Positions 39,866-53,505 of a DNA stretch of 64,000 nucleotides are shown here, in pieces. This DNA is from a phage: sequence record PX393108.1; one strand, 5' to 3'. A model generated the notes under the pieces. The model made no database searches. It was given only the letters and a program-made list of their open reading frames with translations, and was not told the DNA's origin. Both the position numbers and the translations under genes were made by a program. Every line of letters begins with the position of its first letter. The first letter of the stretch is position 1.

Positions 39866-40447
39866 CTAACCGAGCTTTTTAGTTAATTCATTCCAATGTT
39901 TTCTACACAAAGAAACATAAATTTCATCACCAATACAGATTTGATTACCTTCTTTAACTGGTGTTCCATCTTCCATTAATCGAGCTGTCATAATAGCTTT
40001 TTTACCACAATGACAAACTGCTTTTAGTTCAATAAGTTTATCTGCAATCGCCAAAAGTTCTTTAGAACCTTCAAATAATTTTCCAGCGAAATCAGTCCTT
40101 AGCCCATAAGCCATAACAGGAACATTGTATGTATCGACAATTCGGCTTAATTGATGCACCTGTTCAGTTTTTAAAAACTGAGCTTCATCTACAAATACGC
40201 AATGAATATCTTTTTGTGCTTCAGCCCATTTATAGAACTCAAAAATATCCATATCATCCGTAATAATATTCGCTTCCTGCTTAATTCCAATGCGAGAAAC
40301 GACTTCACAGACAGAATCGCGAGTATCAATAGCAGGTTTAAGAACTAATACACCCATTCCGCGTTCTTTATAATTATGCGCAGCAGTCAAAAGAGAAGCA
40401 GATTTTCCAGCATTCATTGCTGCATAAGTAAAAATTAAACTCGCCAT
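39866..40447 (-). CDS. tk: Thymidine kinase
   Basis: 193 aa; P-loop AMNAGKS; C-terminal zinc ribbon CHCG ... C. Confidence 0.9.
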   Translation of the reverse strand: MASLIFTYAAMNAGKSASLLTAAHNYKERGMGVLVLKPAIDTRDSVCEVVSRIGIKQEANIITDDMDIFEFYKWAEAQKDIHCVFVDEAQFLKTEQVHQLSRIVDTYNVPVMAYGLRTDFAGKLFEGSKELLAIADKLIELKAVCHCGKKAIMTARLMEDGTPVKEGNQICIGDEIYVSLCRKHWNELTKKLG

Positions 40448-40456
40448 ATCACCTTC

Positions 40457-40663
40457 TTAAAGCGTATTCACATAAGCTATTAATTCGTTTTCTTTCTTAT
40501 CAAACCGGTCAGCAAATTCTTCTTGCTGTTCGGGAGATAGCGGGCCGTATTCATCATAAAAGGTGTTTGCTTCTGTATGCTCATCTAGAAGTTCATGGAT
40601 AAGCTCAAACAATTTATCTTTTTGTTCTTTACTCAGACTCATAACCATGTAACCTTTAAGCAA
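40457..40663 (-). CDS. Hypothetical protein
   Basis: ORF track, 68 aa. Confidence 0.4.
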   Translation of the reverse strand: MLKGYMVMSLSKEQKDKLFELIHELLDEHTEANTFYDEYGPLSPEQQEEFADRFDKKENELIAYVNTL

Positions 40664-40851
40664 TATTCTTCTACATGTTGTTTACGACCTTTCCTATCAA
40701 TAAAGGTATATTCAACGAATGTTCCAATATAGTCTTTATCTACATCATGAGGACTATTAATTGGGCATTTAGTACGGCAAATGCGTTCCCATTGACGAAT
40801 AATTTCCGCTTTGTTTTTAGGATCAAACGGATGCGGGTAATGTACTTTCAT
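40639..40851 (-). CDS. Hypothetical protein
   Basis: ORF track, 70 aa. Confidence 0.4.
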   Translation of the reverse strand: MKVHYPHPFDPKNKAEIIRQWERICRTKCPINSPHDVDKDYIGTFVEYTFIDRKGRKQHVEEYCLKVTWL

Positions 40852-41302
40852 AATCCACCACTATCAAATCAATATCAGGAGTAAACATGTCGATTAATTT
40901 AGAAACCTTATCCCAATCACCGCCAGCAATACCACAACCTATGCGTGGAATATAAATTACTGGTTTAAACAAAAGGGTCTCTGCCTGTAGATTTAATTCT
41001 ATCATGCAATTTACTAAAGCACCATAATCAAGATTAGGACCCGGTTCGTATTGCGTATACAGGTTATAGCATATACCAAATCCCGTAGGACTATGTTTAA
41101 AAACAATAGACATATCGCCTAATTTATCGCGAGAACCGTACTCGGTAGTAGTTTTATCTATTTCTAAAATTTTGGGATAGGCTCTTGCTAATTGACCTGC
41201 CACACCTGAACCCATAGTATGAAAGCAGTTGCACCCGTGCGCAATAATATTACCTTGAAGAAATAGGGCGACAATATCGCCCTTGATATATTTTACAATC
41301 AT
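40823..41302 (-). CDS. Putative macrodomain (ADP-ribose binding/processing) protein
   Basis: 159 aa; KGDIVAL ... NIIAHGCNC ... MGSGVAGQLA and IPRIGCGIAGGDWDKV resemble macrodomain glycine-rich motifs. Confidence 0.5.
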   Translation of the reverse strand: MIVKYIKGDIVALFLQGNIIAHGCNCFHTMGSGVAGQLARAYPKILEIDKTTTEYGSRDKLGDMSIVFKHSPTGFGICYNLYTQYEPGPNLDYGALVNCMIELNLQAETLLFKPVIYIPRIGCGIAGGDWDKVSKLIDMFTPDIDLIVVDYESTLPASV

Positions 41303-41640
41303 CTAGTACTCAATCCTCGATTATAAGAATCTACCAAACGGTCAACCATTGAATGACAAGCGGCTTTATCTTTCTCCTCCGCAACTGAACATTCTAAGGT
41401 ATTCCACTTTTTAGCATATCGTTTTAATAAAGTATCGTTCTTGTATCTGCTTGATTTATCTCTTTCTCCGTCTTTATATGCATATATTAATTTCTGCGCA
41501 AATTCAGCTTGGCATGCTTTATTTTTCCCGCAATAATCCGCGGCAGTACGGTTTACATACTCTCTAATTTCAGTATATGATGTATTTGCTAACGCAGAAA
41601 ATGAAATTAATCCTATACATAAAACCAAAATTTTAGTCAT
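41299..41640 (-). CDS. Hypothetical secreted protein
   Basis: 113 aa; signal peptide MTKILVLCIGLISFSALA. Confidence 0.45.
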   Translation of the reverse strand: MTKILVLCIGLISFSALANTSYTEIREYVNRTAADYCGKNKACQAEFAQKLIYAYKDGERDKSSRYKNDTLLKRYAKKWNTLECSVAEEKDKAACHSMVDRLVDSYNRGLSTR

Positions 41641-52484: not shown

Positions 52485-52560
52485 TGGTCGAGGCAGTAGG
52501 GATCGAACCTACGACCTAGGACTTAGAAGGTCCTTGCTCTTCCTTCTGAGCTATGCCCCG
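52485..52560 (-). tRNA. tRNA-Arg (anticodon UCU)
   Basis: Acceptor CGGGGCA/UGCCUCG, anticodon loop CUUCUAA, encoded CCA. Confidence 0.8.
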
Positions 52561-52564
52561 TAAT

Positions 52565-52640
52565 TGGGGTGACCGATGGGAGTCGAACCCATGACTACGA
52601 GAATCACAATCTCGAGTTCTACCAACTGAACTACGGCCAC
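52565..52640 (-). tRNA. tRNA-His (anticodon GUG)
   Basis: Acceptor GUGGCCG/CGGUCAC, discriminator C, anticodon loop UUGUGAU, encoded CCA. Confidence 0.7.
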
Positions 52641-52753
52641 ATTAATACCTACTCCAACAATCAAGATGTCTTCACACGAAATTAAGAGAAGAGTGATCAG
52701 TTCAACCCTATAATCGCGTCAAGTAGATATTAATGTGACAGTTGTCACAAATT

Positions 52754-52828
52754 TGGCGGACGTGATAGGATTCGAACCTATAACCAATCGCTTAACAGGC
52801 GATCGCTCTGCCATTGAGCTACACATCC
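52754..52828 (-). tRNA. tRNA-Asn (anticodon GUU)
   Basis: Acceptor GGAUGUG/CACGUCC, anticodon loop CUGUUAA, encoded CCA. Confidence 0.7.
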
Positions 52829-52832
52829 AAAT

Positions 52833-52919
52833 TGGTGGGGAGTGATGGAGTCGAACCACCCGAGTCGCAATGACAATGGATTTACAGTCCACACCGCTAC
52901 CTCTACGGGATAACTCCCC
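52833..52919 (-). tRNA. tRNA-Tyr (anticodon GUA)
   Basis: Acceptor GGGGAGU/ACUCCCC, anticodon loop CUGUAAA, long variable arm, encoded CCA. Confidence 0.7.
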
Positions 52920-52932
52920 TTAATTCTTAATT

Positions 52933-53007
52933 TGGTGGCCCTGGGTGGAATTGAACCACCATCTGGCGATTATGAGTCGCTTGCTTGAACCTTCCAGCTA
53001 CAGGGCC
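52933..53007 (-). tRNA. tRNA with anticodon CAU (Ile2-type or Met)
   Basis: Acceptor GGCCCUG/CAGGGCC, anticodon loop CUCAUAA, encoded CCA; T4 tRNA-Ile uses CAU. Confidence 0.7.
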
Positions 53008-53008
53008 T

Positions 53009-53084
53009 TGGTGCTGATTGACGGAATCGAACCGCCGACCTTCTCATTACAAGTGAGTTGCTCTACCTACTGAGCTAAATCAGC
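53009..53084 (-). tRNA. tRNA-Thr (anticodon UGU)
   Basis: Acceptor GCUGAUU/AAUCAGC, anticodon loop CUUGUAA, encoded CCA. Confidence 0.8.
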
Positions 53085-53089
53085 AAAAC

Positions 53090-53179
53090 TGGCGGAGGCG
53101 ATAGGATTTGAACCTATGAGTCGCCGGAGCGACTGCCGGTTTTCAAGACCGGTGCATTAAACCACTCTGCCACGCCTCC
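53090..53179 (-). tRNA. tRNA-Ser (anticodon UGA)
   Basis: Acceptor GGAGGCG/CGCCUCC, anticodon loop CUUGAAA, long variable arm, encoded CCA. Confidence 0.8.
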
Positions 53180-53181
53180 AG

Positions 53182-53255
53182 TCTCCATACAAGGATTTGA
53201 ACCTTGGACCTCCTGATCCCAAATCAGGCGCTCTACCAAACTGAGCTACACGGAG
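53182..53255 (-). tRNA. tRNA-Pro (anticodon UGG)
   Basis: Acceptor CUCCGUG with G-U pairs, anticodon loop UUUGGGA; CCA not encoded. Confidence 0.75.
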
Positions 53256-53265
53256 TAAATTAAAT

Positions 53266-53339
<74 letters not shown>

Positions 53340-53344
53340 AAATT

Positions 53345-53431
53345 TGGTGCGAGAAGTGGGACTCGAACCCACAAGGAAATCATTCCGCAGCATTTTAAGT
53401 GCTGTGCCTTTACCAATTTGACCATTCTCGC
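53345..53431 (-). tRNA. tRNA-Leu (anticodon UAA)
   Basis: Acceptor GCGAGAA/UUCUCGC, anticodon loop CUUAAAA, long variable arm, encoded CCA. Confidence 0.8.
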
Positions 53432-53432
53432 G

Positions 53433-53505
53433 CTGGGAATAAAGGACTCGAACCTTTGCATCCTGGAATCAAAATCCAGTGCCTTACCAACTTGGCTAAT
53501 TCCCA
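53433..53505 (-). tRNA. tRNA-Gln (anticodon UUG)
   Basis: Manual cloverleaf: acceptor UGGGAAU/AUUCCCA, anticodon loop UUUUGAU, T-arm GGTTCGAGTCC; CCA not encoded. Confidence 0.8.

What the first reader, a model, noticed from the sequence alone, without database searches (positions are those of the whole stretch)
40823..41302. Macrodomain-like protein in the tk-vs early region
The 159-aa protein has KGDIVAL ... NIIAHGCNC ... MGSGVAGQLA near the N-terminus and IPRIGCGIAGGDWDKV near the C-terminus, resembling the two glycine-rich ADP-ribose-binding motifs of macrodomains. A phage macrodomain could remove or bind ADP-ribose, for example reversing host ADP-ribosylation defences or tuning the phage's own ADP-ribosyltransferases. 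It sits among early genes next to regB.
Basis: partly seen in the sequence, partly recalled or inferred. Interest (0 to 1): 0.6.

Follow-up and report, generated by a model that had tools for sequence, protein, structure and literature searches.

The report
T4 tk.4 macrodomain, anti-DarTG2 factor AdfM
This is the well-known T4-type phage gene tk.4, a macrodomain enzyme already shown in phage T4 to protect the phage from a bacterial defence that tags DNA with ADP-ribose, so the finding is correct but not new.

Summary
The 159-aa ORF at 40823..41302 (- strand) is real and carries the quoted motifs. It is a macrodomain: Pfam Macro scores 32 bits against a cut-off of 22. The AlphaFold2 model has pLDDT 92.6, and its best solved-structure matches are TARG1, BT1257, Poa1p, DarG and SCO6735. 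The window is a Tequatrovirus (T4-like phage), and the gene sits in the slot of T4 tk.4, between vs and tk.3. T4 tk.4 has long been annotated 'A1pp phosphatase / macro domain'. A November 2025 preprint (HIDEN-SEQ) showed that deleting tk.4 makes T4 sensitive to the DarTG2 defence and renamed it adfM.

I add three small points:
- **Divergent allele.** This copy is only 58% identical to T4 Tk.4, although flanking genes are 93-100% identical. It is a swapped allele cassette, and a chimeric allele exists in another phage.
- **Catalytic residue.** The catalytic position holds an invariant Gln84, as in Streptomyces SCO6735 (Gln85), not the Lys of DarG and TARG1.
- **PhiKZ 'AdfM'.** The protein of that name in phage PhiKZ is a barely related, Lys-type macrodomain.

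No biochemistry exists for T4 Tk.4 or for this allele. regB is two genes away, not adjacent.

The parts
40823..41302 (-). tk.4 / adfM coding sequence, a 159-aa single-domain macrodomain protein
   Evidence: ORF list. Pfam Macro 32 bits, above the gathering score of 22. 58% identical to T4 Tk.4, E=1e-70, in the same slot between vs and tk.3. AF2 pLDDT 92.6 and Foldseek macrodomain hits.
41192..41239 (-). Loop 1 region, H22-GCNCFHTMGSGVAG-Q37. It holds H22 and N25 (nearly invariant in 121 sequences, invariant in the 40-sequence set) and G33 and A35 (invariant in both).
   Evidence: Translation check and conservation in 40 and 121 homologues. H22 and N25 align with SCO6735 H24 and N27, and H22 with Poa1p H23.
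41039..41065 (-). Catalytic-loop motif N80-LYTQYEP-G88. The Gln84 codon CAA lies at 41051..41053.
   Evidence: Q84, N80 and Y82 are invariant in 121 homologues. Q84 aligns with TARG1 Lys84. Through family member P0094 it aligns with SCO6735 Gln85 and M. tuberculosis DarG Lys80. The SCO6735 Q85A mutant is inactive (PMC9411070).
40913..40948 (-). Loop 2, P119-RIGCGIAGGD-W130, the diphosphate-binding glycine-rich loop
   Evidence: Translation check. It aligns with PRIGCGLAGGKW of BT1257 and PRIGCGLAGGTW of SCO6735. A126 occupies the position of TARG1 Asp125.
41299..41302 (-). ATGA overlap between the vs stop codon (TGA) and the tk.4 start codon (ATG), an arrangement typical of translational coupling
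   Evidence: Read directly from the sequence.
40823..40851 (-). 29-nt overlap of the tk.4 3' end with the tk.3 start. In T4 the overlap is 4 nt; this allele carries four extra C-terminal residues.
   Evidence: ORF coordinates, T4 annotation and sequence.
40851..41264 (.). Divergent allele block relative to T4: 42-82% nucleotide identity inside the block, 93-100% on both sides
   Evidence: Sliding identity against T4, and against T4 and phage SCS4.
42675..42703 (-). Sigma-70-like promoter (TTTACT, 17 nt, TG-TATAAT) upstream of regB. It is the nearest candidate for a transcript running through regB, vs.1, vs and tk.4.
   Evidence: Consensus scan. The region holds no more such sites than shuffled sequence (13 found against 18.4 expected), so this assignment is tentative.

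Best explanation
The gene is the orthologue of phage T4 tk.4 (adfM), in a T4-like Tequatrovirus genome. It encodes a free-standing macrodomain of the TARG1/DarG/SCO6735 (ALC1-like) class. The most likely mechanism is as follows. The gene is probably expressed early with its neighbours. The enzyme binds the ADP-ribose that the host DarT2 toxin of the DarTG2 defence attaches to thymidine in single-stranded phage DNA. It then hydrolyses the ribose-base bond, restoring replicable DNA and cancelling the defence. Catalysis probably follows the SCO6735 route, with Gln84 positioning the distal ribose and a water molecule, not the lysine route of DarG and TARG1.

Shown here: the fold, the family, the synteny, the conservation pattern and the Gln at the catalytic position. 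Shown elsewhere, for the T4 allele only: the DarTG2-specific knockout phenotype. Inferred: that this 58%-identical allele does the same job, and that the job is enzymatic removal of ADP-ribose from DNA.
For: Pfam Macro is above threshold. PDB sequence hits are BT1257 (E=3.7e-10), Poa1p, SCO6735 (8.5e-8), Mtb DarG (4.9e-5) and TARG1, and they are stronger with the family profile. The AF2 model has pLDDT 92.6 and pTM 0.88. Foldseek ranks TARG1, BT1257, Poa1p, DarG and SCO6735 at the top with probability 1.00 and TM-scores of 0.63-0.84.

The gene occupies the same slot as T4 tk.4, with 58% identity at E=1e-70. The T4 tk.4 knockout is sensitive to DarTG2, and tk.4 was the only hit in that screen. 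T4 lacking adfA and adfN stays DarTG2-resistant, which had predicted a further factor (PMC11825919).

The invariant Q84 aligns with SCO6735 Gln85, DarG Lys80 and TARG1 Lys84. SCO6735 removes thymidine-linked ADP-ribose from DNA, and its Q85A mutant is inactive. All family-invariant residues are present in this allele.
Against: No biochemical assay exists for T4 Tk.4 or for this allele; the preprint infers the mechanism from structural similarity. This allele differs from the tested one at 42% of positions, including loop 2 (GCGIAGGDW here, GAGIGKGNW in T4). The SCO6735 residues Lys34 and Lys89, which contribute to DNA activity, are not conserved: Tk.4 has Ser32 and a substrate loop 6 residues shorter than in BT1257. 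Catalytically dead SCO6735 still inhibits DarT in vitro, so hydrolysis need not be the only mode of action.
Confidence: 0.75

Rival explanations
1. The protein neutralises DarT2 mainly by binding and blocking the toxin (stoichiometric inhibition), and hydrolysis of ADP-ribosylated DNA is secondary or dispensable.
For: Catalytically inactive SCO6735 (Q85A) efficiently inhibits DarT in vitro, more strongly than DarG K80A or TARG1 K84A (PMC9411070). The T4 preprint did not test catalytic mutants in the passages read.
Against: The protein is a bare 159-aa macrodomain without the C-terminal DarT-binding domain of DarG2. The catalytic-site residues Q84, N80, Y82, G33 and A35 are invariant, and H22 and N25 nearly so, across 121 homologues from many phage groups. 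That pattern fits a conserved enzymatic pocket better than a toxin-specific binding surface. PhiKZ AdfM removes ADP-ribose from DNA in vitro, although it belongs to a different subfamily.
Confidence: 0.1
2. It is an eraser for other ADP-ribose conjugates: protein ADP-ribosylation (including marks made by the phage's own Alt, ModA and ModB enzymes), or RNA ADP-ribosylation such as uracil-linked ADP-ribose. Under this reading DarTG2 resistance would be one of several roles, or a side activity.
For: SCO6735 also removes glutamate-linked ADP-ribose from PARP1 and uracil-linked ADP-ribose from RNA (PMC13036486). Macrodomains are versatile (PMC9503650). T4-like phages carry three ADP-ribosyltransferases (own knowledge).
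Against: Alt, ModA and ModB modify arginine (own knowledge). The solved relatives matched here (TARG1, DarG, SCO6735) are reported to act on acidic-residue esters and pyrimidine bases. In the T4 screen tk.4 was depleted specifically under DarTG2. No ADP-ribosyltransferase gene lies next to tk.4.
Confidence: 0.1
3. It is a small-molecule enzyme, as the legacy annotation 'phosphatase' implies: an ADP-ribose-1''-phosphate phosphatase (Poa1p-like) or an O-acetyl-ADP-ribose deacetylase.
For: T4 tk.4 is annotated 'phosphatase; contains A1pp phosphatase motif'. PHROG 335 is named 'phosphatase'. The N-terminal half matches yeast Poa1p at E=1.6e-9, and H22 aligns with Poa1p His23, a residue mutated in the H23A structure 6lfs.
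Against: The residue aligned with Poa1p Ser30 (Thr29 here) varies freely within the family. The annotation comes from domain naming, not from an assay. The only phenotype on record is DarTG2-specific.
Confidence: 0.05

Closest known systems
Phage T4 Tk.4 = AdfM (anti-DarT factor Macrodomain), NP_049723; HIDEN-SEQ preprint 10.1101/2025.11.20.689424
   Same: It occupies the same genomic slot between vs and tk.3, with the same ATGA coupling to vs. Length is similar (155 against 159 aa), the fold is the same, and identity is 58% with no gaps. Both share the NLYTQ motif and the loop 1 sequence.
   Different: 42% of residues differ, although the neighbouring genes are 93-100% identical. Loop 2 differs (GCGIAGGDW here, GAGIGKGNW in T4). 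This allele has four extra C-terminal residues that run 29 nt into tk.3. Only the T4 allele has a tested phenotype.
Streptomyces coelicolor SCO6735 (PDB 5e3b), a stand-alone macrodomain that cleaves thymidine-linked ADP-ribose on DNA
   Same: It is a stand-alone ALC1-like macrodomain with Gln, not Lys, at the catalytic position (Gln85 = Tk.4 Gln84). The His-x-x-Asn motif (H24/N27 = H22/N25) and the PRIGCG(L/I)AGG(T/D)W loop 2 are shared. It is not encoded next to a DarT toxin; the same holds for the bacterial family member P0094.
   Different: Identity is about 25%. SCO6735 has a longer mobile loop carrying Lys89 and Lys94, and Lys34 in loop 1. Tk.4 has a short loop and Ser32. Val25 of SCO6735 is an invariant Gly23 here. 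SCO6735 is a cellular, DNA-damage-inducible gene, not a phage gene.
DarG2 antitoxin macrodomain (T. aquaticus 5m31/5m3e, M. tuberculosis 5m3i)
   Same: The fold is the same (Foldseek probability 1.00, TM about 0.72-0.77), and so is the presumed substrate, thymidine-linked ADP-ribose made by DarT2.
   Different: DarG uses a catalytic Lys80 in an FPTK motif, where Tk.4 has Gln. DarG carries a C-terminal DarT-binding domain and is encoded beside darT. Its sequence match is weaker than that of BT1257, TARG1, SCO6735 or Poa1p (46.8 bits for 5m3i and 39.2 for 5m31, against 57-72 bits).
PhiKZ gp104 'AdfM' (Cell Rep 2026, PMC13309987)
   Same: It is a phage-encoded free-standing macrodomain of similar size (162 aa) that counteracts DarTG2, and it has been given the same name. 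Its removal of ADP-ribose from TNTC DNA was shown in vitro.
   Different: It is barely alignable to Tk.4 (BLASTP E=0.001 over 23 residues). It carries the DarG-type FPTK lysine motif, not LYTQ. It is imported into the phage nucleus. The two 'AdfM' proteins belong to different macrodomain subfamilies and are probably independent acquisitions.
Human TARG1/OARD1 (4j5r) and Bacteroides BT1257 (2fg1/2afc)
   Same: TARG1 is the best structural match and BT1257 the best sequence match. BT1257 shares the Gln at the catalytic position.
   Different: The TARG1 catalytic dyad Lys84/Asp125 is replaced by Gln84/Ala126. In the PDB, BT1257 is deposited as a protein of unknown function.

Membership tests
Macro domain (Pfam PF01661) | Match to the family HMM above the curated gathering score | tested here: met
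   32 bits against a cut-off of 22, E=1.3e-7, covering profile positions 2-117 of 118.
Macro domain (Pfam PF01661) | Three-layer alpha/beta/alpha macrodomain fold | tested here: met
   The AF2 model has pLDDT 92.6 and pTM 0.88, with six core strands alternating with helices. Foldseek finds 167 PDB matches at E<=0.001; the 50 best listed are all macrodomains or designed hydrolases related to the macrodomain protein TTHA0132.
Macro domain (Pfam PF01661) | Two glycine-rich ADP-ribose/diphosphate-binding loops | tested here: met
   MGSGVAG (30-36) and GCGIAGG (122-128) align with the corresponding loops of BT1257, SCO6735, TARG1 and Poa1p.
Macro domain (Pfam PF01661) | Binds ADP-ribose | not testable with these tools
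   Needs ITC, thermal shift or co-crystallisation.
T4 Tk.4 / AdfM orthologous group | Sequence homology to T4 Tk.4 over the full length | tested here: met
   58% identity over 155 aa, no gaps, E=1e-70.
T4 Tk.4 / AdfM orthologous group | Conserved position between vs and tk.3 in a Tequatrovirus genome | tested here: met
   Flanking genes are 93-100% identical to T4 vs, vs.1, regB, tk.3 and tk. The window is 98-99% identical to Tequatrovirus genomes.
T4 Tk.4 / AdfM orthologous group | Confers resistance to DarTG2 | not testable with these tools
   Shown only for the T4 allele. Needs plaque assays with this allele.
SCO6735-type (Gln) ALC1-like macrodomain hydrolases | Glutamine at the position of DarG Lys80 / TARG1 Lys84 | tested here: met
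   Q84 is invariant in 121 homologues and aligns with TARG1 K84, SCO6735 Q85 and Mtb DarG K80. The residue numbering was checked against the mutants named in PMC9411070.
SCO6735-type (Gln) ALC1-like macrodomain hydrolases | Extended, lysine-bearing mobile substrate loop (Lys89, Lys94) and Lys34 | tested here: not met
   The Tk.4 loop after Q84 is 6 residues shorter than in BT1257, and 2 residues shorter again than that of family member P0094, which is itself shorter than SCO6735. It has no lysines (QYEPGPNLDY), and Ser32 replaces Lys34.
DarG2 antitoxin | Catalytic lysine (Lys80) in the macrodomain | tested here: not met
   Gln84 occupies that position.
DarG2 antitoxin | C-terminal DarT-binding domain and an adjacent darT gene | tested here: not met
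   The protein is 159 aa and a single domain. Its neighbours are vs and tk.3.
Poa1p-like ADP-ribose-1''-phosphate phosphatase | Residues His23 and Ser30, both mutated in deposited Poa1p structures (6lfs, 6lft) | tested here: inconclusive
   H22 aligns with His23 and is conserved. Thr29 aligns with Ser30, but that column is variable in the family. Activity was not tested.

The most novel reading that the evidence does not exclude
The T4-type 'AdfM' family may not derive from the DarG2 antitoxin at all. It may be an independently recruited Gln-type (SCO6735/BT1257-like) macrodomain with a different catalytic mechanism and possibly a broader substrate range, such as thymidine-ADPr on DNA plus uracil-ADPr on RNA. 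Under this reading, the sharply divergent alleles that recombine in the tk.4 slot of otherwise near-identical phages (window-type, T4-type and chimeras such as the one in phage SCS4) would reflect selection for different specificities against different host ADP-ribosylating toxins.
Probability: 0.2. Interest if true: 0.45.

Novelty: already known. Interest (0 to 1): 0.15.

Why it matters
Phage macrodomains that erase DNA ADP-ribosylation explain why T-even phages resist DarTG2, and they are one layer of a multi-layered anti-DarTG arsenal (AdfA, AdfN, AdfM). That point is already in the literature for T4. The remaining value here is modest. By number of clustered database sequences, the window's allele cluster (304 members) is larger than the two T4-type clusters (184 and 122 members), yet it is 42% different from the allele that was tested. 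In addition, the family uses a Gln-type active site like SCO6735, unlike DarG and unlike PhiKZ 'AdfM'. Both points matter for anyone generalising the T4 result, designing catalytic-dead controls, or annotating 'AdfM' across phages.

Tried and rejected
- **Residue-level alignment to SCO6735.** I tried to get it directly from Tk.4. In the full-length PDB search 5e3b ranked sixth, outside the printed alignments. A C-terminal fragment query aligned only loop 2. Using the bacterial family member P0094 as a bridge solved this.
- **First structure job.** It was rerun without that row.
- **Hairpin inside tk.4 (41265..41283).** I considered that this terminator-like hairpin might be a regulatory element. 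The local fold is not unusual (z=-1.25), so it is only noted.
- **Promoter assignment.** The scan found no excess of sigma-70-like sites over shuffled sequence, so only the regB-proximal site is mentioned, and tentatively.
- **Origin from a DarT-linked antitoxin.** One bacterial homologue (P0094, Pelagimonas chromosome) has no DarT neighbour. A single case is not a survey.
- **Literature.** I looked for biochemical work on T4 Tk.4 and found none beyond the HIDEN-SEQ preprint.
- **Model coordinates.** They are not available to scripts, so the distance from invariant D49 to the active site could not be measured.

Full report
**Observation.** It is a real gene. Pfam Macro (PF01661) matches residues 22-136 over nearly the whole profile, at 32 bits against a gathering score of 22. 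The large protein database holds 794 homologues at E<=1e-3, and tblastn finds matches in 2,860 phage records. PHROGs places it in phrog_335, 'phosphatase'. One detail of the finding is inaccurate: regB is not adjacent. The order on the - strand is regB, vs.1 (SLT-domain protein), vs, tk.4, tk.3 (DUF7202), a tk.2-like gene (DUF7438), then tk.

**Identity of the locus.** The window is a Tequatrovirus. A 6-kb stretch around the gene is 98-98.7% identical to Shigella phage SH-1, Escherichia phage sutha and other phages. The gene order matches phage T4 (NC_000866), where the corresponding gene is tk.4, annotated 'phosphatase; Tk.4; contains A1pp phosphatase motif'. Other records call it 'macro domain protein'. 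The macrodomain nature of this gene has therefore been in public annotation for a long time.

**Fold.** An AlphaFold2 model built from 39 homologues is confident: mean pLDDT 92.6 and pTM 0.88, with only the last five residues disordered. Foldseek against the PDB ranks TARG1 (4j5r), BT1257 (2fg1), Poa1p (6lfq), T. aquaticus DarG (5m31), SCO6735 (5e3b) and M. tuberculosis DarG (5m3i) at the top. All have probability 1.00, with TM-scores of 0.63-0.84. Sequence searches of the PDB give the same set.

**Function, from the literature.**
- The HIDEN-SEQ preprint (10.1101/2025.11.20.689424) infected a DarTG2-expressing host with a T4 transposon library. [quoted passage not shown] A clean knockout sensitised T4 to DarTG2, and the gene was renamed adfM, anti-DarT factor Macrodomain. 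Its authors infer, but do not show, that it removes ADP-ribose from DNA.
- This fits the earlier finding that T4 lacking adfA and adfN remains DarTG2-resistant (PMC11825919).
- A Cell Reports 2026 paper gives the same name to PhiKZ gp104 and shows in vitro removal of ADP-ribose from TNTC DNA (PMC13309987).
- I found no biochemical work on T4 Tk.4 itself.

**What the sequence adds: active site.** The family motif NLYTQ contains an invariant Gln84 (121 homologues).
- The family profile aligns this Gln with TARG1 Lys84, and Ala126 with TARG1 Asp125.
- Through family member P0094, the Gln aligns with Gln85 of SCO6735 and with the catalytic Lys80 of M. tuberculosis DarG. The chain numbering reproduces the residues H24, V25, N27, K34, Q85 and K89 named in PMC9411070.
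- That paper shows that SCO6735 cleaves thymidine-linked ADP-ribose on DNA. It lacks the Lys/Asp dyad, and Q85A abolishes activity.
- BT1257 also has Gln at this position.

Tk.4 is therefore a Gln-type enzyme like SCO6735, not a Lys-type enzyme like DarG. It differs from SCO6735 in lacking the extended lysine-bearing loop and Lys34. PhiKZ AdfM has the DarG-type FPTK motif and is almost unalignable with Tk.4 (E=0.001 over 23 residues). The two 'AdfM' proteins thus belong to different subfamilies. One bacterial family member lies in a chromosome with no DarT neighbour.

**What the sequence adds: allele structure.** The window protein is only 58% identical to T4 Tk.4. By contrast, rI, rI.1, tk, tk.3, vs, vs.1 and regB are 93-100% identical.
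- Nucleotide identity to T4 falls from 95-100% to 42-67% between about 40851 and 41204. It recovers through the conserved 5' part of the gene.
- A second divergent block covers the tk.1/tk.2 position. tk.1 is absent here, and the tk.2-like gene is 54% identical to T4 tk.2.
- Phage vB_EcoM_SCS4 carries a chimeric tk.4: residues 1-49 are of the window type and residues 50-155 of the T4 type. It combines this with a window-type tk.2. Alleles in this region therefore recombine.
- The identity histogram over phage records is discontinuous: 313 records at >=90%, 7 at 80-90%, 103 at 60-80%, and the rest below 60%.
- The window's allele cluster has 304 member sequences, against 184 and 122 for the two T4-type clusters.

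**Mechanism and rivals.** Best supported (confidence about 0.75): an early-expressed, free-standing ADP-ribosylglycohydrolase that removes DarT2-installed ADP-ribose from thymidine in phage DNA through a Gln84-dependent, SCO6735-like mechanism. The rivals are:
- Toxin binding without catalysis. Dead SCO6735 still inhibits DarT.
- Erasure of other protein or RNA ADP-ribose marks. SCO6735 also acts on Glu-linked protein ADP-ribose and on uracil-linked RNA ADP-ribose.
- The legacy small-molecule 'phosphatase' role. The Poa1p His23 equivalent is conserved, but the Ser30 equivalent is not.

**Expression signals.** The tk.4 start overlaps the vs stop (ATGA), and its 3' end overlaps tk.3 by 29 nt. 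This fits co-translation within a tightly packed operon. The nearest good sigma-70-like site on the - strand lies upstream of regB, but such sites are not enriched in the region.

**Verdict.** Interest is low. The residual points of interest are the divergent, recombining allele and the Gln-type active site. Neither is noted in the passages of the papers I read.

Noticed in passing
window 40447..40663: Relative to T4, tk.1 is absent; only 9 nt separate tk from the next ORF. The tk.2-like gene (DUF7438; probable start at the ATG at 40642, giving 61 aa and an ATGA overlap with the tk.3 stop) is only 54% identical to T4 tk.2. This is a second swapped block within a few hundred bases of the tk.4 block.
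   Followed up: partly
L005 (Escherichia phage vB_EcoM_SCS4) 1501..1968: This phage has a chimeric tk.4: residues 1-49 match the window allele and residues 50-155 match the T4 allele. It also has a window-type tk.2 and an extra small ORF between tk.3 and tk.2. This shows recombination inside and around tk.4 among Tequatrovirus phages.
   Followed up: partly
window 52485..53505 (- strand): A cluster of 11 tRNA genes: Arg, His, Asn, Tyr, Met(CAT), Thr, Ser, Pro, Gly, Leu and Gln. T4 itself has 8 (own knowledge), so this phage carries additional His, Asn and Tyr tRNAs.
   Followed up: no
window 41265..41283 (- strand): A perfect 8-bp GC-rich hairpin (AGGGCGAUAUUGUCGCCCU) followed by a U-rich run lies inside codons 7-13 of tk.4 (KGDIVAL). 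It sits at the edge of the stretch that is 100% identical to T4. The fold of the surrounding 91 nt is not unusual (z=-1.25), so it may be coincidental.
   Followed up: partly
window 41156..41158 (codon of Asp49 of tk.4): Asp49 is invariant in all 121 homologues aligned but has no counterpart in SCO6735, where the alignment places a Tyr. Its role is unknown.
   Followed up: no
L002 (phage PhiKZ) 12518..13006: PhiKZ gp104, published as 'AdfM', has the DarG-type FPTK lysine motif and shares almost no detectable sequence similarity with T4-type Tk.4/'AdfM'. The same name now covers two different macrodomain subfamilies.
   Followed up: yes
window 41299..41640 (vs): The HIDEN-SEQ preprint reports that the neighbouring gene vs (valyl-tRNA synthetase modifier) is the most strongly depleted T4 gene in minimal medium compared with LB. 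The window's vs is 96.5% identical to T4 vs.
   Followed up: no
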